A stretch of 64,000 bases of DNA from assembly GCF_988242995.1 (NCBI RefSeq), contig NZ_OZ547043.1; one strand, 5' to 3'. Position numbers and translations under genes: made by a program. Shown piece after piece: positions 34,626 through 38,991 of this stretch (the first letter of the stretch is position 1; every line of letters begins with the position of its first letter). Under the pieces are notes generated by a model. It was not told where the DNA came from. It saw only the letters and a program-made list of their open reading frames with translations, and did no database searches.

Positions 34626-37022
34626 ATGCACGAAAAGAACATCGCCCTGCTTTGTGATGAAGCCGACCGGCTTTTGCAACTGAATATCAATCTGCTCCGG
34701 CAAATGGTTGATGAGCCGGATGTGTTATCTGACAGTAAGAACGAAAACGGGCTGCTTTTTGATAAACGGAAAGCGCTGAAAAGAATTGAGGAGCTGGAGG
34801 GCGAACAAATCAAAACCGCCCGCAGGGAGATGGTGCTGGCTGTTGTCGGCACGATGAAAGCAGGCAAATCAACCACCATCAACGCCATTGTGGGGCAGGA
34901 AATTCTGCCTAACCGTAACCGCCCCATGACCTCTGTACCGACACTCATCCGCCACGTTCCCGGAAAAACTGAGCCGGTCCTCCATCTGGAACATATTCAG
35001 CCTGTCCGCAATTTATTAATCACACTGCAGGAAAAACTCGCCACCCCGGCAGGACAGCAAGTCGCACAGACCCTGCTGCAAACCGGGGATACCCGTGAAC
35101 TGCTGGATATTCTGACGGATGATGGCTGGCTCAAAAATGAATACCACGGGGAGGAGGAAATCTTTACCGGACTGGCATCGTTAAACGATCTGGTTCGTCT
35201 TGCTGCGGCAATGGGGAGTGAGTTTCCTTTTGATGAATACGCAGAAGTGCAGAAACTGCCGGTGATCGACGTGGAATTCAGCCATCTGGTGGGGATGGAT
35301 GCATGCCAGGGAACACTCACACTGCTGGATACCCCCGGCCCTAATGAAGCCGGCCAGCCGCAGATGGAAGTGATGATGCGGGATCAACTGCAGAAAGCTT
35401 CTGCGGTTCTGGCAGTGATGGATTACACCCAGATGAACTCAAAAGCGGATGAAGACGTCCGTAAAGAGCTTAATGCCATTGCGGACGTATCAGTTGGCCG
35501 CCTGTTTGTGCTGGTCAATAAATTTGATGAGAAAGACCGCAATGGCGATGGGGCAGATGCCGTACGCCAGAAAGTTCCGGCAATGCTGAACAGCGATGTG
35601 CTGCCCGCCTCCCGCGTTTATCCCGGATCCTCACGCCAGGCATACCTGGCTAACCGTGCGCTTCATGAGTTACGGAAAAACGGAACCCTTCCTGTTGATG
35701 AAGCCTGGGTCGATGATTTTGTCAGGGAAGCTTTCGGTCGCATGAAAAAAGATTACGTCTGTAAAGACAGCGAACTGGCAACTGAAGGGGCAACAGACCT
35801 GTGGGAAGGCTCACTTATCGATCAACTGATAACGGAAGTCATACAGAGTTCCCATTCCAGAGCGGCGGCACTGGCGGTTGATTCTGCCGCCGCAAAACTG
35901 ATGCAGAATGCGGAAAATGTCAGCGAATATCTGTCATTACGCCATCAGGGGCTACAGCAAAGCATTCAGTCACTGCAGGCGCATATCACCAGCCTGCTTG
36001 CGGATATCCGGGAAATCGCGGACTGTCAGGAGCAGGTGACCGCTGATGTCAGAATGGCCATGGAGGAGATCGATGCCAGAACCCGGGAATTACTCACGGG
36101 GGTCTGCACCTCACTGGAAGAGGAACTGAATGACTATTTCAGAACCGGTAAACGCAAAGAACAGCAAATGCTGGAGGAAGAAGACACAGAACAACGAAGG
36201 TCCCGGTCCGGATTATGGGGAAAGATTTATCGATGGTCCGGTATCAATAACCCGGGCTGGGAGGATGACAGGATACGAGTCTTTGATCCGGAAAACCCCG
36301 AGATAACATTAAATAATCGCAGGGAAGCCCTTGAACTGATGACGCAAATCGAATCGACCGTGACCAGCCTGCACAGTGAGGCTGAGGCACAGTTCCGGCC
36401 TGAGCTGGAGAAAATCGTCAGCGGGATTGAAACAGGTTTTCGTGGTACGGCCCTGTATGCGACAGAAAACATCGCCGGACGTATCAATGCCCGCCTGGCG
36501 GATGAGGGCTTCACTGTAAAAATCAGTTTTCCGGCAGTCAGTCAGTTACAGACCCGGCTCGCGGTAAAAACAAATCTGAGTGCGCTTATGGAGGAAAGAA
36601 CGGAGACAGTCACCCGTCGCCGTCGGAAGGATAGCTTCATTGGAAAGATTTGTGGATGGATTGGCACCAAAGAATGGGGATGGGAAAACTATAACGTGGA
36701 TGTGAGCCGCAGTGTTATCAATATCAACAAGGTCAGGAAGGAGGTGATGTCACTGACCCGGGCATATTTCGGGGAGCTGCAGGCATCCATTGAGCAGGAT
36801 ATTAACCAGCCCGTCCGCCAGGAAATCGATGCCTTTTTCTGTACATTCAGGGAGAAAGTTGAACAGCTGCGTAACACGCTGATTCAGAGCTCTGAAGATC
36901 ATAAACGCGATCAGCAGGCGCAGGAACGGCTGACCGGGCGTCTTCAGGCGTTAAATGAAAGAGTTCCTGAGCTCATTACTGACAGTAAGGCGTTAAGGGA
37001 AGAACTGGAGACAATGCTGTGA
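34626..37022 (+). CDS. dynamin-like large GTPase (CrfC/YjdA-like bacterial dynamin)
   Basis: 798 aa; G1 P-loop GTMKAGKST (aa 75-83, nt 34848..34874), G3 DTPG (LLDTPGPNE), G4 NKFD (LVNKFDEK); long alpha-helical C-terminal region. Confidence 0.85.
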   Translation: MHEKNIALLCDEADRLLQLNINLLRQMVDEPDVLSDSKNENGLLFDKRKALKRIEELEGEQIKTARREMVLAVVGTMKAGKSTTINAIVGQEILPNRNRPMTSVPTLIRHVPGKTEPVLHLEHIQPVRNLLITLQEKLATPAGQQVAQTLLQTGDTRELLDILTDDGWLKNEYHGEEEIFTGLASLNDLVRLAAAMGSEFPFDEYAEVQKLPVIDVEFSHLVGMDACQGTLTLLDTPGPNEAGQPQMEVMMRDQLQKASAVLAVMDYTQMNSKADEDVRKELNAIADVSVGRLFVLVNKFDEKDRNGDGADAVRQKVPAMLNSDVLPASRVYPGSSRQAYLANRALHELRKNGTLPVDEAWVDDFVREAFGRMKKDYVCKDSELATEGATDLWEGSLIDQLITEVIQSSHSRAAALAVDSAAAKLMQNAENVSEYLSLRHQGLQQSIQSLQAHITSLLADIREIADCQEQVTADVRMAMEEIDARTRELLTGVCTSLEEELNDYFRTGKRKEQQMLEEEDTEQRRSRSGLWGKIYRWSGINNPGWEDDRIRVFDPENPEITLNNRREALELMTQIESTVTSLHSEAEAQFRPELEKIVSGIETGFRGTALYATENIAGRINARLADEGFTVKISFPAVSQLQTRLAVKTNLSALMEERTETVTRRRRKDSFIGKICGWIGTKEWGWENYNVDVSRSVININKVRKEVMSLTRAYFGELQASIEQDINQPVRQEIDAFFCTFREKVEQLRNTLIQSSEDHKRDQQAQERLTGRLQALNERVPELITDSKALREELETML

Positions 37023-37924
37023 CTTCACCATTTATTCAACAAATTGCTGATAACCGGGTATGTCAGGTACTCACCTGTCTTCCTGAAAAATTTGTGGTTG
37101 ATTTCGCAAACGGTATCGATGTTGCACAGGAGCATATCCGCACGGCCGGAGAGCGCACGTTCTTCCGGCGGTTAAAAGAGGGGCTGAGCGGCGAAGGTGC
37201 TGCACGGCAGAATGCCATCAATGCTTCGCTTGCACAGGGCGTTGAGGCATCCCTGCGCTGGCTGACGGAGCTGACAACGTCACTTGCCACCACAAACTAC
37301 GCGATTACCCGGGTAAACGACAGGGTCAGTTCACTGGTCAGTGATACTGCCAGGCTGGCGCATTATTCCGCAGATACGCGGGAGCAGTTACTCACCCTGG
37401 CCGATCAGGTTCACCAGAAACTGAATCATCTTGAAGAAAAACTCCACCGTGTTGACCAGGTTCAGCGGGCACAGTTACATCTTGAGCAGATATTCTCATG
37501 GTGGAGTGCCGGGCGATATGCGTCCTTTTCCCCTGCCGGACGCTGCTATGTGGCGCTTGAAGAGCTTCGATGGGGCGCGTTTGGTGATGTGATACGTCAG
37601 GGCGAAACAGGGCAGGTTAACCAGCTACTGGATATTCTCAGACATAAAGCATTAACGCAGATGGCACAGGAGAGTGGCGGTAGTGCAACCGTGCGTCTGA
37701 ACACTCTGGACTGGCTTGGTGGTCAGGTCCGGGAGCAGGCAGATAACGAGTGGCATGACGCGATTAACTGGCTGGGGGACTGGTGCAGTGAAGAGCGGCA
37801 TCCGGTGATCTGGTCAACCACGCAGGCTGCAGAACACTTACCGGTTCGTATGCCCCGTCTCTGCTCTGCAGAGCGCCTCTCTGAAAGTATGGTTGATGAA
37901 ATATTTCAGAAGGGGGCGGCATGA
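37019..37924 (+). CDS. hypothetical helical partner protein of the dynamin-like GTPase (possibly YjcZ-like)
   Basis: 301 aa; GTG start overlapping upstream stop (GTGA); stop overlaps downstream start (ATGA), implying translational coupling. Confidence 0.65.
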   Translation: MTSPFIQQIADNRVCQVLTCLPEKFVVDFANGIDVAQEHIRTAGERTFFRRLKEGLSGEGAARQNAINASLAQGVEASLRWLTELTTSLATTNYAITRVNDRVSSLVSDTARLAHYSADTREQLLTLADQVHQKLNHLEEKLHRVDQVQRAQLHLEQIFSWWSAGRYASFSPAGRCYVALEELRWGAFGDVIRQGETGQVNQLLDILRHKALTQMAQESGGSATVRLNTLDWLGGQVREQADNEWHDAINWLGDWCSEERHPVIWSTTQAAEHLPVRMPRLCSAERLSESMVDEIFQKGAA

Positions 37925-38991
37925 GTACAGAAATGAAAACGGGGCTGGTGCTGTCCGGTGGCGGGGCGGTGGGCGCTTATCAGGCAGGTGTGGTTAAGGC
38001 TCTGGCAGAGTGCGGCGCACAGATCAGTATGGTCTCAGGAGTCAGTATCGGGGCTCTCAATGGTGCCATTATCGCGGCCTCTCCCGATCTGTCAGAAGCC
38101 GCCGCACGCCTGGAGGCGCTCTGGAAGTATCTGGGAGAGAATCAGGTTCTGTCGGTAAACCGATCGGTTTACTTTTCATTGCTGAAAAAATTGTTCCAGG
38201 CAATGAACCTCTGCCAGATCCCCGGACGTGCAGGAGTACTGCTTACGACGCTTCTTCGCCATATATCGACAATCAACGGGTTCGAAAATCCGATGGCTCA
38301 GCCGTTGTTGTCAGATGGACCCCTGACAGGGCTGATGGATCATTATCTTGATACTGATGCTCTGTCAGACGGGCTACCGTTGTATGTGTCGCTGTACCCC
38401 ACGGAAGGGGGAGTGCAGGATATTATCGACTGCATTCGTGCTGAACTGGGTGCCGGAACTACAAAAAACTCCGTTTTTCAGCATATCCAGAGCCTGCCCC
38501 GCGGGCAGCAGAAAGAAGCCTTACTGGCGTCAGCAGCACTGCCCCTGCTGTTCCGTCCCCGTGAGGTACAGGGAAAAATGTACGGTGATGGTGGTATGGG
38601 CGGATGGCAAAATATGCAGGGGAATACCCCTGTGACGCCACTGGTGGATGCCGGATGCAATATGGTGATTGTGTCGCATCTGAGTGACGGTTCTTTATGG
38701 GATCGCCGGGCTTTTCCGGACACCACAATCCTTGAAATCCGTCCCCGGAAAAAGCTGAAACAAACAGGGGAAGAAGGCAAAAGTGGCGGTCTGCTCAGTT
38801 TTACATCGGCACATACCGACACCTGGCGTCAGCAGGGCTATGAAGACACGATGCTGACGATGGAGCATATCCGGAAACCGCTGGCAGCACGTCAGGCACT
38901 GACCCGGTCAGAGGCGGTATTGCAGAAAAGCCTGGATATAACGGAAGAGGCAGATTTGGCACTGAGAAACGCGATGGCCCGGATTAAATAA
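37921..38991 (+). CDS. patatin-like phospholipase
   Basis: 356 aa; oxyanion motif LSGGGAVGAYQAG, GxSxG nucleophile motif GVSIGALNG, catalytic DGG (MYGDGGMGG). Confidence 0.85.
   Translation: MSTEMKTGLVLSGGGAVGAYQAGVVKALAECGAQISMVSGVSIGALNGAIIAASPDLSEAAARLEALWKYLGENQVLSVNRSVYFSLLKKLFQAMNLCQIPGRAGVLLTTLLRHISTINGFENPMAQPLLSDGPLTGLMDHYLDTDALSDGLPLYVSLYPTEGGVQDIIDCIRAELGAGTTKNSVFQHIQSLPRGQQKEALLASAALPLLFRPREVQGKMYGDGGMGGWQNMQGNTPVTPLVDAGCNMVIVSHLSDGSLWDRRAFPDTTILEIRPRKKLKQTGEEGKSGGLLSFTSAHTDTWRQQGYEDTMLTMEHIRKPLAARQALTRSEAVLQKSLDITEEADLALRNAMARIK

What the first reader, a model, noticed from the sequence alone, without database searches (positions are those of the whole stretch)
34626..38991. Three-gene operon: CrfC/dynamin-like GTPase + helical partner + patatin-like phospholipase, a candidate uncharacterised system
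Seen in sequence: three ORFs in one orientation with overlapping stop/start codons (GTGA at 37019..37022, ATGA at 37921..37924), bounded by hairpin terminators at 33481..33520 and 39008..39033. ORF1 (798 aa) has dynamin GTPase motifs (GTMKAGKST, DTPG, NKFD) and resembles the E. coli dynamin-like protein CrfC/YjdA over the GTPase region (recalled from memory, not searched). ORF3 has a full patatin catalytic set (GGGxxG, GVSIG, DGG). Dynamin-like proteins mediate membrane remodelling and occur in phage defence (LeoA/LeoBC-type Eleos systems, Bacillus DynA), and patatin-like phospholipases are membrane-attacking effectors in CBASS. I am not aware of a described system pairing a dynamin-like GTPase with a patatin phospholipase, and the operon sits in the variable cargo slot of a CP4-44-like prophage remnant. 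Inference: a GTPase-controlled, membrane-targeting abortive-infection or membrane-remodelling module.
Basis: partly seen in the sequence, partly recalled or inferred. Interest (0 to 1): 0.9.

Follow-up and report, generated by a model that had tools for sequence, protein, structure and literature searches.

The report
Mobile dynamin–YjcZ–patatin three-gene cassette
A three-gene cassette (a dynamin-like GTPase, a small helical partner and a membrane-lipid-cutting enzyme) that travels between bacteria on mobile DNA is probably an untested anti-phage or membrane-attack system, and appears to be the mobile relative from which E. coli's RdcA/RdcB signalling pair was derived.

Summary
Three co-oriented, overlapping ORFs (34626-37022, 37019-37924, 37921-38991) encode a BDLP-class dynamin-like GTPase, a YjcZ/RdcB-family helical protein and a patatin-like phospholipase with an intact catalytic set. 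They are paralogues, not orthologues, of E. coli RdcA(CrfC)/RdcB. About 45% of complete E. coli genomes carry the trio, in the CP4-44-type cargo slot. It also occurs on conjugative plasmids and in beta- and gammaproteobacteria, always in the same order with overlapping or abutting junctions. Neighbours include BREX, McrBC, type I R-M and often a WYL/WCX regulator. No hit in 50,697 phage genomes. PADLOC v2 has no model for it; it is neither Eleos nor CBASS. Two 2026 papers already flag it: DefensePredictor scores its dynamin gene as a predicted novel defence gene (seemingly untested), and an RNA-seq study found the operon strongly induced in Kapi1 lysogens. New here: the patatin-linked trio is the default form of the YjcZ family. 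The chromosomal rdcA-rdcB pair is one syntenic, patatin-less Enterobacteriaceae clade nested beside Budvicia and Vibrio trios. Most likely mechanism, inferred not shown: a GTP-gated dynamin/YjcZ switch at the membrane controls the phospholipase during infection. It is an uncharacterised new variant of a known kind.

The parts
34515..34544 (+). Candidate sigma-70 promoter of the operon (TTAATA, 18-nt spacer, TATCAT) in the 217-bp leader
   Evidence: Consensus scan, 9 of 12 matches. Such matches are no more frequent here than in shuffled sequence, so this is weak on its own. Its position 80 bp upstream of ORF1 fits.
34527..34564 (.). Operator-like repeats: direct repeat ATCGATCGTTA twice (34527-34537, 34545-34555) and inverted repeat GATCGTTATAAACGATC (34548-34564). 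They contain three GATC sites that straddle the predicted -10 hexamer.
   Evidence: the two exact copies lie 18 bp apart, and 0 of 100 shuffles reached the observed number of matches in the window. The repeats are conserved among Escherichia alleles but not in other genera. Their function was not tested.
34626..37022 (+). ORF1, 798 aa: BDLP-class dynamin-like GTPase and paralogue of RdcA/CrfC. It has a G domain (about residues 68-335), a long helical stalk, and a stalk-tip subdomain. The tip carries a hydrophobic/aromatic loop (about 528-545) and the conserved motif TRRRRxxxFIGKICGWIGTKEWGWENY (about 663-689).
   Evidence: Pfam Dynamin_N, E 5e-17. 46% identical to RdcA. NCBIfam CrfC scores 558 bits against a cutoff of 1146. 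AF2 model pLDDT 78.8. Foldseek best match is Nostoc BDLP 2j69, E 2.8e-13, followed by SynDLP, IniA and mitofusins. G1-G4 motifs are invariant. Tip-loop comparison.
37019..37924 (+). ORF2, 301 aa: YjcZ/RdcB-family all-helical protein, the likely adaptor between the GTPase and the patatin. GTG start overlaps the ORF1 stop.
37921..38991 (+). ORF3, 356 aa: patatin-like phospholipase with GGGxxG (13-18), GxSxG (Ser42) and DGG (Asp223), plus a conserved C-terminal extension of about 115 aa. No signal peptide or transmembrane segment.
   Evidence: Pfam Patatin, E 8.4e-27. Catalytic motifs at least 95% conserved in 37 trio patatins. Nearest solved relative is PlpD 5fqu, E 2.5e-12. Only weak similarity to the CBASS lipase and to RssA. 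Hydropathy.
39011..39035 (+). Intrinsic terminator closing the operon (CACCGCC-TGT-GGTGGTG followed by TTTTT)
   Evidence: Terminator scan and direct reading of the sequence. It starts 20 bp after the ORF3 stop codon.

Best explanation
The operon is one copy of a widespread, horizontally mobile three-gene cassette. It most likely acts as a membrane-directed defence module against phages or other invading DNA.

Proposed working:
1. The BDLP-class GTPase (ORF1) docks on the inner membrane through its stalk-tip hydrophobic loop and its Arg/Trp-rich motif, and acts as a nucleotide-gated switch. By analogy with its paralogue RdcA, GTP-bound would be 'off' and nucleotide-free or assembled would be 'on'.
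2. The YjcZ-family protein (ORF2) binds the GTPase, as RdcB binds RdcA, and couples it to the patatin.
3. On a trigger such as infection-induced membrane perturbation or a fall in GTP, the patatin (ORF3, Ser42/Asp223 dyad) is released or activated and hydrolyses membrane phospholipids. This either kills the infected cell or locally remodels the membrane.
4. Expression is inducible. In many lineages the controller is an adjacent WYL/WCX regulator. In Escherichia it is probably the repeat-bearing leader.

Shown: gene content, intact catalytic motifs, strict co-conservation and co-evolution, mobility, defence-island neighbours, and (from the literature) induction in lysogens.

Inferred: all protein-protein contacts, membrane binding, the trigger, and the defence phenotype itself.

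Corollary: the chromosomal rdcA-rdcB (crfC-yjcZ) pair of Enterobacteriaceae is a patatin-less, domesticated offshoot of this cassette, rewired to activate the diguanylate cyclase DgcE.
For: Co-conservation:
- Every sampled relative outside Enterobacteriaceae has dynamin, YjcZ and patatin in the same order with overlapping or abutting junctions. This covers 5 of 5 divergent patatin homologues, 32 of 32 genome loci from gamma- and betaproteobacteria plus two MAGs labelled Syntrophomonadaceae and Synergistaceae, and 3 of 3 of the most distant YjcZ members at 25-27% identity.
- Pairwise distances of the three proteins correlate at r = 0.84-0.87, Mantel p = 0.001.

Mobility:
- 2442 of 5426 complete E. 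coli genomes carry it, with up to 5 places per genome.
- In E. coli it sits in CP4-type elements.
- 47 plasmid records carry it, 16 of them conjugative.
- Elsewhere it lies in islands bearing an integrase or a relaxase.

Defence context:
- BREX BrxL/PglZ in Vibrio.
- McrBC with WYL and PDDEXK genes.
- McrBC with type I R-M and an adjacent WCX regulator.
- WYL (8) and WCX (7) are the most recurrent Pfam families among 145 flanking ORFs. A co-oriented WYL gene lies 13-2033 bp upstream in at least 8 lineages.

Independent literature:
- DefensePredictor gives the 798-aa and 794-aa dynamin genes mean log-odds of 6.7 and 7.7 and labels them 'Predicted novel defense gene'. A validated system (DS-38) lies about 0.9 kb upstream on the same ECOR contig.

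Biochemical plausibility:
- All GTPase and patatin catalytic residues are conserved.
- ORF1 has a BDLP-like fold.
- Trio-type GTPases carry a hydrophobic tip loop that is deleted in soluble RdcA.
- RdcA/RdcB is an established GTP-inhibited switch acting on a membrane domain.

YjcZ-patatin as the tight pair: one variant keeps a YjcZ fusion plus patatin but has no dynamin gene.
Against: - No phenotype exists. I found no report of phage resistance, toxicity or lipase activity.
- PADLOC v2 and PHROGs have no model for it.
- The effector is never swapped for another type in the loci sampled. That is unusual for sensor-effector defence systems and fits an integrated lipid-remodelling machine at least as well.
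- The defence-island association was judged from a handful of annotated contexts and a Pfam tally. It was not tested against a genome-wide background.
- Some contexts are plain chromosomal, for example next to queA/tgt or parE/parC.
- The lysogen RNA-seq signal was partly affected by multi-mapping between the two copies.
- The 45% prevalence in E. coli, with mostly intact copies, shows the cassette is well tolerated. This does not by itself favour an abortive-infection role.
Confidence: 0.5

Rival explanations
1. A non-suicidal membrane-maintenance or repair machine. The dynamin-like protein is the effector, sealing or fusing damaged inner membrane as B. subtilis DynA does. The patatin and the YjcZ protein are accessories that generate lysolipids and fatty acids locally or tune the GTPase. 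Any phage protection would be delayed lysis at the population level, not abortive infection.
For: - ORF1 has a BDLP/mitofusin-like fold and membrane-type tip loops.
- One lineage has a two-headed tandem dynamin fusion like DynA.
- The effector is never exchanged, and the three proteins co-evolve tightly, as expected for one integrated machine.
- The authors of the MP1 study favour this reading.
- The cassette is tolerated in 45% of E. coli genomes.
Against: - A variant keeps YjcZ and patatin but has no dynamin, so the dynamin is not the indispensable core.
- The patatin is the most conserved of the three proteins, with a median of 47% identity against 39% for the dynamin.
- Regulation by WYL-type repressors and placement beside restriction and BREX genes are typical of immune systems rather than housekeeping repair.
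Confidence: 0.2
2. A weapon or addiction module of mobile elements rather than a host antiviral system. It would stabilise its carrier island or plasmid, or exclude competing plasmids and islands, with the patatin acting as a toxin held in check by the GTPase/YjcZ pair.
For: - The cassette sits on CP4-type elements beside CbtA/CbeA toxin-antitoxin and antirestriction genes.
- It is on IncF conjugative plasmids flanked by IS elements.
- It is absent from 50,697 phage genomes.
- It responds transcriptionally to another mobile element, the Kapi1 prophage.
Against: - 4.4 kb and three proteins, one of them 798 aa, is large for an addiction module.
- Neighbouring genes in non-enteric hosts are anti-phage systems, not plasmid-maintenance genes.
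- The pair-type derivative survives without any toxin partner, which shows the GTPase/YjcZ pair is a signalling switch and not a dedicated antitoxin.
Confidence: 0.12
3. A second RdcA/RdcB-type regulator of c-di-GMP signalling, as the RefSeq product name 'diguanylate cyclase regulator RdcB family protein' implies. The patatin would be an unrelated passenger or a lipid-signal generator.
For: - Clear homology to RdcA (46%) and RdcB (31%), with all G motifs conserved, including the Thr that is essential in RdcA.
- Two of the 145 flanking ORFs in relatives carry GGDEF domains.
Against: - Below the CrfC equivalog cutoff: 558 bits against 1146.
- Different genomic site, and mobile.
- The patatin is strictly co-inherited with translationally coupled junctions.
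- The trio occurs widely outside Enterobacteriaceae. The GTPase tip region that differs most from RdcA is the membrane-type loop.
- The host already has its own rdcAB.
Confidence: 0.06
4. A host-directed virulence phospholipase of the ExoU/VipD/PlpD type, carried on pathogenicity islands.
For: - The nearest solved patatins are PlpD and VipD.
- The cassette lies on islands of ExPEC and STEC strains.
Against: - No signal peptide, autotransporter domain or secretion-system neighbours; the patatin domain starts at residue 9.
- The cassette is equally present in environmental sulfur bacteria, Pseudomonas, Gallionella and commensal E. coli.
- Similarity to VipD and PlpD is limited to the N-terminal glycine-rich and serine motifs.
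Confidence: 0.03

Closest known systems
RdcA/RdcB (YjdA=CrfC / YjcZ) of E. coli K-12, activators of diguanylate cyclase DgcE
   Same: Homologous first two genes: a dynamin-like GTPase followed by a YjcZ-family protein with a 4-bp overlap. Identity is 46% and 31%. All G motifs are conserved, including the catalytic Thr (T102 here, T103 in RdcA). Both are soluble proteins without transmembrane segments.
   Different: - No patatin gene in rdcAB.
- rdcAB has a fixed chromosomal site, yjdM|rdcAB|proP, in all 48 Enterobacteriaceae loci examined.
- RdcA lacks the hydrophobic stalk-tip loop, and its Arg/Trp motif has decayed.
- ORF1 scores far below the CrfC equivalog cutoff.
- In the tree the pair-type is a single clade (100/100) next to the Budvicia (100/100) and Vibrio (96/100) trios.
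Eleos (LeoA/LeoBC) dynamin-like anti-phage system
   Same: Dynamin-superfamily GTPases encoded on mobile islands of E. coli and associated with defence islands. DefensePredictor lists Eleos LeoBC as the nearest known, remote, relative of the trio's dynamin.
   Different: The only match is a 21.5-bit partial hit of the stalk region to LeoBC, and there is no LeoA hit. Eleos has neither a YjcZ-family protein nor a phospholipase.
Type I CBASS with the patatin effector CapV
   Same: A cytoplasmic patatin-like phospholipase with the same Ser-Asp dyad, encoded in a defence-type operon. The proposed outcome, membrane phospholipid degradation, is the same.
   Different: There is no CD-NTase or any nucleotide cyclase in the operon. 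The patatin scores 18.9 bits against a cutoff of 200 for the CBASS lipase model, and E is about 1e-4 for the PADLOC effector models. It also carries its own conserved C-terminal extension. Activation would have to be by protein partners, not by a cyclic dinucleotide.
Bacterial dynamin-like proteins: Nostoc BDLP, SynDLP, IniA, Campylobacter DLP1/2, B. subtilis DynA
   Same: The predicted fold of ORF1 matches these best (E 2.8e-13 to 1e-7): a G domain, a helical stalk and a tip region. One trio lineage has a DynA-like two-headed fusion.
   Different: Sequence similarity is confined to the P-loop region. None of these is encoded together with a YjcZ protein or a patatin. Their known roles are membrane fusion, fission or repair rather than control of an enzyme.
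WYL-domain regulators of defence operons (BrxR of BREX, CapW of CBASS). The link to defence is from established knowledge and was not tested here.
   Same: A WYL/WCX gene sits directly upstream of the trio, in the same orientation, in many lineages. The basal pair-type loci also retain it.
   Different: The window itself has no WYL gene. In Escherichia the operon has a different leader with ATCGATCGTTA repeats.

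Membership tests
Dynamin superfamily, BDLP/mitofusin class | Large GTPase domain with G1 (GxxxxGKS/T), G2 Thr, G3 (DxxG) and G4 (N/TKxD) motifs | tested here: met
   Pfam Dynamin_N, E 5e-17. G75-T83, T102, D235-G238 and N298/D301 are invariant across 37 aligned proteins, and K299/F300 are conserved in at least 90%. The same motifs are at least 95% conserved across 85 proteins.
Dynamin superfamily, BDLP/mitofusin class | Helical stalk (neck/trunk) with a tip region; overall fold like solved BDLPs | tested here: met
   AF2 model pLDDT 78.8 with long helices at 413-507, 565-626 and 700-797. Foldseek best matches are BDLP 2j69 (E 2.8e-13), SynDLP and IniA. TM-scores are low (about 0.3), as expected for flexible multi-domain proteins.
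Dynamin superfamily, BDLP/mitofusin class | Nucleotide-dependent self-assembly and membrane binding or remodelling | not testable with these tools
   There are only indirect hints: a hydrophobic/aromatic tip loop and an RRRR/Trp-rich motif.
RdcA/RdcB (CrfC/YjcZ) regulators of DgcE | Adjacent, overlapping genes for a dynamin-like GTPase and a YjcZ (PF13990) protein | tested here: met
RdcA/RdcB (CrfC/YjcZ) regulators of DgcE | Orthology to CrfC: NCBIfam NF007368 equivalog score at or above 1146 bits | tested here: not met
   558 bits. In the tree the window groups with other trio loci, apart from the pair-type clade.
RdcA/RdcB (CrfC/YjcZ) regulators of DgcE | Conserved chromosomal position between yjdM and proP, as a two-gene operon | tested here: not met
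   All 48 pair-type loci are at yjdM|..|proP. The window copy is in the CP4-44 slot and has a third gene.
RdcA/RdcB (CrfC/YjcZ) regulators of DgcE | Binds the MASE1 domain of DgcE and activates c-di-GMP synthesis | not testable with these tools
   Known for RdcA/RdcB only.
Eleos (LeoA/LeoBC) | Proteins matching the LeoA and LeoBC models | tested here: not met
   PADLOC gives only a partial LeoBC hit (E 2.7e-5, 21.5 bits, no stretch passing on its own) and no LeoA hit.
CBASS type I (CD-NTase plus patatin CapV) | A cGAS/DncV-like nucleotidyltransferase in the operon and a CapV-type effector | tested here: not met
   No cyclase among the three ORFs or their neighbours. The CBASS_lipase model scores 18.9 bits against a cutoff of 200.
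Patatin-like phospholipases (PF01734) | Patatin domain with a glycine-rich oxyanion hole, a GxSxG nucleophile and a DG[GA] aspartate | tested here: met
   Pfam E 8.4e-27. G13-G15/G18, G40/S42/G44 and D223-G225 are at least 95% conserved in 37 homologues.
Patatin-like phospholipases (PF01734) | Lipid acyl-hydrolase activity | not testable with these tools
   Needs biochemistry.
Anti-phage defence systems (generic) | Recurrent co-localisation with known defence genes on mobile or variable islands | tested here: inconclusive
   Positive in several contexts: BREX, McrBC, type I R-M, WYL regulators, DS-38, EcoKI and Druantia. DefensePredictor log-odds are 6.7-7.7. I ran no background-controlled enrichment test.
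Anti-phage defence systems (generic) | Confers resistance to phage when expressed | not testable with these tools
   No report was found in the searchable literature. The term 'dynamin' does not occur in DefensePredictor's table of tested systems.

The most novel reading that the evidence does not exclude
The dynamin/YjcZ/patatin trio is a new family of bacterial immune system. A dynamin-superfamily GTPase acts as a GTP-gated membrane sensor and licenses a phospholipase through a dedicated adaptor. This would be a prokaryotic counterpart of the immune dynamin-like GTPases of eukaryotes (Mx, GBP, IRG), which mark membranes for attack. The long-puzzling E. coli housekeeping pair RdcA(CrfC)/RdcB would then be a domesticated, disarmed copy of that immune module, rewired to control biofilm c-di-GMP signalling.
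Probability: 0.35. Interest if true: 0.8.

Novelty: new variant of a known kind. Interest (0 to 1): 0.62.

Why it matters
- The cassette is in nearly half of all complete E. coli genomes, often in more than one copy, and on clinical Klebsiella and Enterobacter plasmids. Yet its function has not been tested.
- If it is a defence system, it adds a new logic: a dynamin-class GTPase switch controlling a lipase, with no nucleotide second messenger.
- It gives the dynamin superfamily a second, mechanistically distinct role in bacterial immunity.
- It offers an evolutionary explanation for RdcA/RdcB (CrfC), whose origin and 'real' function have been debated. It also predicts what RdcB does, namely act as an adaptor between the GTPase and its client.
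- It corrects a misleading propagated annotation, 'diguanylate cyclase regulator RdcB family protein', for thousands of island-borne genes.
- The system is small, the catalytic residues are obvious, and a natural inducing condition (Kapi1 lysogeny) is already reported. The hypothesis can therefore be tested directly.

Tried and rejected
Searches that found no match or no membership:
- PADLOC v2, NCBIfam and PHROGs scans of all three proteins found no existing system or phage family. I rejected Eleos, CBASS, Menshen (NsnC, E 0.005) and Zorya (ZorA, E 9e-4) as coiled-coil noise.
- Rfam found nothing in 31000-42000. Base composition is unremarkable, at 50-55% GC.
- tblastn against 50,697 phage genomes found no YjcZ homologue, so the cassette is not phage-borne.

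Analyses that failed or were uninformative:
- The first attempt to scan genomes with a 32-sequence YjcZ alignment failed because no stretch was conserved enough. A 10-sequence alignment worked, but its patterns (ELRWGxFGD and others) bias the sample toward closer relatives.
- I looked for a patatin remnant downstream of pair-type rdcB genes by tblastn and found none. The loss left no trace, or the pair never had a patatin.
- I looked for a conserved promoter or operator across genera. The leader is conserved only within Escherichia.

Ideas considered and dropped:
- The upstream YeeP-type GTPase as a fourth component. I rejected this because in Pectobacterium it is several genes away from the trio, and it is absent from non-enteric loci.
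- The 1688-aa ORF in L044 as an ORF-calling artefact. It is a genuine tandem dynamin fusion.
- Fusing partners for a pseudo-complex structure prediction. I did not run this because the tool returns no interface metrics.

Full report
**1. The observation**

The window contains three co-oriented ORFs at 34626-37022 (798 aa), 37019-37924 (301 aa) and 37921-38991 (356 aa). The stop/start overlaps GTGA (37019-37022) and ATGA (37921-37924) are in the sequence as described. An intrinsic terminator follows the last stop codon: CACCGCC-TGT-GGTGGTG then TTTTT, at 39011-39035. It lies before the neighbouring YeeP-type GTPase gene (33536-34408), not next to ORF1.

Pfam confirms Dynamin_N for ORF1 (E 5e-17), YjcZ/PF13990 for ORF2 (E 4.7e-70) and Patatin for ORF3 (E 8.4e-27).

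**2. Relationship to RdcA/RdcB**

ORF1 is 46% identical to E. coli K-12 RdcA (YjdA/CrfC) across the GTPase half, and much weaker across the C-terminal half. ORF2 is 31% identical to RdcB (YjcZ). ORF1 scores 558 bits on the NCBIfam CrfC equivalog model, whose cutoff is 1146. These are therefore paralogues, not orthologues.

RefSeq nevertheless names ORF2 a 'diguanylate cyclase regulator RdcB family protein'. RdcA/RdcB activate the diguanylate cyclase DgcE by docking on its membrane MASE1 domain. Genetic data indicate that GTP-bound RdcA is inactive and the nucleotide-free form is active, and that RdcB binds RdcA as a co-activator (PMC6510439).

**3. Where the trio occurs**

The window is identical over the operon to E. 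coli S88 and other B2 strains. The trio lies in the CP4-44 element between the YeeP-type GTPase gene and the DUF932 / antirestriction / yeeS / yeeT / cbeA / cbtA backbone. K-12 carries isrC-flu-yeeR in that slot, and O157:H7 carries cah plus the trio.

- 2442 of 5426 complete E. coli genomes hold at least 80% of the operon, with up to five places per genome and several alleles at 90-99% identity.
- It is found on 47 plasmid records (E. coli, Klebsiella, Enterobacter, Citrobacter, Nostoc, Aliarcobacter). Sixteen are conjugative. One example is an IncFII Klebsiella plasmid, where the trio is bracketed by IS elements.
- It is absent from 50,697 phage genomes and from PHROGs.

**4. Co-conservation**

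Starting from the patatin, five divergent homologues (47-64% identity) all have Dynamin_N, YjcZ and Patatin in the same order. They come from Pectobacterium, Vibrio vulnificus, Oceanospirillaceae, Plesiomonas and a metagenome.

Starting from the YjcZ protein, the family is small: 329 representative clusters among 1.84 billion proteins. A scan of one genome per species returned 79 loci. Every locus in which the upstream region is present has a dynamin-like gene immediately upstream of the YjcZ gene. One short contig, L025, begins at the YjcZ gene.

- 32 loci also have the patatin immediately downstream. They come from Pantoea, Erwinia, Budvicia, eight Pseudomonas, purple sulfur bacteria, Comamonadaceae, Gallionella, Aquaspirillum, Marinospirillum and others.
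- 47 loci, all Enterobacteriaceae, have no patatin.

The three most distant YjcZ members examined (25-27% identity) are also trios. Gene junctions overlap or abut in all trio loci. Pairwise distances of the three proteins across 33 loci correlate at r = 0.84-0.87, Mantel p = 0.001. The catalytic residues of both the GTPase and the patatin are at least 95% conserved.

**5. The pair is probably the derived form**

All pair-type loci (the 47 from the scan, plus K-12) sit at the same chromosomal site, yjdM | rdcA rdcB | proP. In a neighbour-joining tree of concatenated dynamin and YjcZ proteins:

- the pair-type loci form one clade (100/100 bootstraps);
- that clade groups with the Budvicia trio (100/100);
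- it then groups with the Vibrio trio (96/100).

Unless the root lies exactly on the stem of the pair clade, the pair is nested within trios. The basal pair-type lineages (Buttiauxella, Cedecea, some Enterobacter) still keep a WYL-type regulator gene 72-105 bp upstream, like many trios. No patatin remnant is detectable downstream of these pairs.

Together with the much wider taxonomic spread of the trio, this favours one integration next to yjdM followed by loss of the patatin. The alternative, a single patatin gain, is not strictly excluded without an outgroup.

**6. Genomic company**

- In Vibrio the trio lies in a recombinase- and relaxase-bearing element, with a WYL gene 102 bp upstream and BREX brxL/pglZ downstream.
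- In one metagenomic contig it is flanked by McrBC, an AAA protein, a WYL-WCX regulator and a PDDEXK protein.
- In another it is preceded by a WCX regulator and flanked by McrBC, type I R-M genes and a CbbQ/VWA cluster.
- Among 145 ORFs flanking the genome-scan trios, WYL (8) and WCX (7) are the most recurrent Pfam families. Integrases, ResIII/SNF2 helicases, PIN and Fic follow.
- A co-oriented WYL gene lies within about 2 kb upstream in at least eight lineages, and these genes match PADLOC's WYL models.

WYL regulators such as BrxR and CapW are known controllers of defence operons. That link comes from established knowledge and was not tested here. I did not run a background-controlled enrichment test.

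**7. Prior literature**

No paper in the searchable library reports a function for the trio. Two papers flag it.

- DefensePredictor (Science 2026, PMC13092281). Its supplementary tables list the 798-aa 'dynamin family protein' WP_000544741.1 from an ECOR strain. The coordinates, with an operon representative 1969 bp downstream, fit the trio layout. A 794-aa allele is listed too. Both are labelled 'Predicted novel defense gene', with mean log-odds 6.7 and 7.7, and Eleos LeoBC as the remote nearest known relative. The table of tested systems does not contain the term 'dynamin'. A tested system, DS-38 (HEPN), lies about 0.9 kb upstream on the same contig.
- BMC Genomics 2026 (PMC12922286). [quoted passage not shown] They sit next to EcoKI and Druantia. 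The authors call them a putative dynamin defence system and found no known link between phospholipases and dynamins. Some counts were affected by multi-mapping.

**8. Protein anatomy**

ORF1:
- The AF2 model (pLDDT 78.8) has a G domain, a long helical stalk and a beta-rich tip with two low-confidence loops.
- Foldseek's best hits are Nostoc BDLP (E 2.8e-13), SynDLP, IniA, mitofusins and the Campylobacter DLP pair.
- At the tip, trio-type proteins carry a hydrophobic/aromatic loop (window residues about 528-545, GLWGKIYRWSG...). This loop is deleted in pair-type RdcA.
- They also carry the motif TRRRRxxG(V/A)WGxxCxWFxTDDWGWExY, which is strongly conserved in trios and decayed in K-12 RdcA.
- This is what one would expect if trio GTPases bind membrane directly, whereas RdcA, reported to be soluble, docks on MASE1 instead. 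That reading is an inference.

ORF2:
- The model (pLDDT 84.6) is all-helical, with a helix of about 100 residues and a compact C-terminal domain.

ORF3:
- It has no signal peptide or transmembrane segment.
- It carries a conserved C-terminal extension beyond the patatin fold.
- It is the most conserved of the three proteins.

Two variants are informative:
- A 1688-aa two-headed tandem dynamin fusion followed by YjcZ and patatin, which resembles the DynA architecture.
- A two-gene form in which a DUF3944 / YaaW-like domain is fused to YjcZ and followed by the patatin, with no dynamin gene. This makes YjcZ-patatin the tightest pair and supports an adaptor role for ORF2.

**9. Mechanism**

The best-supported reading (confidence about 0.5) is a mobile defence-type module. 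The dynamin-like GTPase and the YjcZ adaptor form a nucleotide-gated switch at the membrane, and that switch controls the patatin phospholipase.

The RdcA precedent suggests a concrete, testable logic. GTP would hold the switch off. Loss of GTP, or assembly on a perturbed membrane, would turn it on.

Whether the outcome is cell suicide or local membrane repair is open. The effector is never exchanged in the loci sampled. This, and the DynA-like variant, keep the repair or remodelling rival alive (about 0.2). Roles in competition between mobile elements or in addiction (about 0.12), RdcAB-like c-di-GMP signalling (about 0.06) and secreted virulence (about 0.03) are less well supported.

**10. 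Regulation in the window**

The 217-bp leader has a weak sigma-70-like promoter at 34515-34544. This overlaps two exact ATCGATCGTTA repeats and an inverted repeat GATCGTTATAAACGATC, which together carry three GATC sites around the -10 hexamer. The arrangement is conserved among Escherichia alleles but not in other genera, where WYL genes take that position.

**11. Verdict**

The finding is real, correctly read at the domain level, and still functionally uncharacterised. It is not entirely unnoticed, given one machine-learning prediction and one transcriptome paper in 2026. It is built from known kinds of parts, so I rate it a new variant of a known kind.

What this analysis adds is the cross-phylum co-conservation, the recurrent WYL regulator, the membrane-type tip features that distinguish it from RdcA, the dynamin-less and tandem-dynamin variants, and the evidence that RdcA/RdcB is a disarmed derivative.

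Noticed in passing
window 34527-34564: Two exact ATCGATCGTTA direct repeats 18 bp apart, plus the inverted repeat GATCGTTATAAACGATC. They place three Dam (GATC) sites around the predicted -10 hexamer of the operon. This recalls the Dam/OxyR phase-variable control of flu, which occupies the same slot in K-12. It could be an operator or an epigenetic switch.
   Followed up: partly
window 33536-34408: A YeeP/YfjP-type small GTPase gene lies directly upstream, with a weak LeoBC-model hit (E 1.1e-5). It is a backbone gene of CP4-type elements. It is not co-inherited with the trio outside Escherichia, so it is probably not part of the system.
   Followed up: partly
window 39127-39615 and 39826-40236: Two small low-GC (42-44%) ORFs lie between the trio and the DUF932 gene. 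Both have hydrophobic, signal-peptide-like N-termini and no PADLOC hit. The first one hits a stop at 39613-39615, where the S88 annotation of the corresponding gene continues to 227 aa. The window therefore differs from S88 here, or the gene is truncated.
   Followed up: partly
window 32289-33452: A 387-aa hypothetical protein upstream of the GTPase gene (WP_000514094.1 in S88) has no PADLOC match. In an ECOR strain, the region just upstream of the trio instead holds the tested HEPN defence gene DS-38. This suggests that this part of the element is a cargo hotspot.
   Followed up: no
L044 1290-6356 (MAG labelled Synergistaceae): The dynamin gene of this trio is a 1688-aa fusion with two Dynamin_N domains. 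This two-headed architecture resembles B. subtilis DynA.
   Followed up: partly
L097 8001-10630 (ENA metagenome assembly contig): A two-gene variant: a DUF3944 plus Ubiq_cyt_C_chap (YaaW-like) domain, with hydrophobic segments, is fused to YjcZ and followed by a patatin. There is no dynamin gene; parE/parC lie upstream.
   Followed up: partly
L036, L037, L038, L040, L041, L043, L055 (Buttiauxella, Cedecea, Enterobacter spp.): The basal rdcA-rdcB pair-type loci at the yjdM site still carry a WYL-type regulator gene 72-105 bp upstream of rdcA. K-12 and most Enterobacteriaceae lack it; in K-12 the operon is under flagellar FlhDC/FliA control.
   Followed up: partly
L090 11394-12301 (E. coli ATCC 25922): The RdcB-family gene of this trio copy is annotated as frameshifted in the reference strain ATCC 25922, which has two places matching the trio. 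The very high 'mutation' counts reported for crfC, rssA and yeeP in an ATCC 25922 resistance-evolution study (PMC7696260) may reflect mis-mapping between such paralogous copies.
   Followed up: no
L001 28747-29120 (S88; corresponds to about window 43146-43519): The cbtA toxin gene of the element's CbtA/CbeA pair is annotated as frameshifted in S88. I did not check this in the window itself.
   Followed up: no
L092 2583-3212: In one very distant trio, an EcsC-family gene encoding a protein with hydrophobic segments lies directly downstream of the patatin. It may be an extra lineage-specific component.
   Followed up: no
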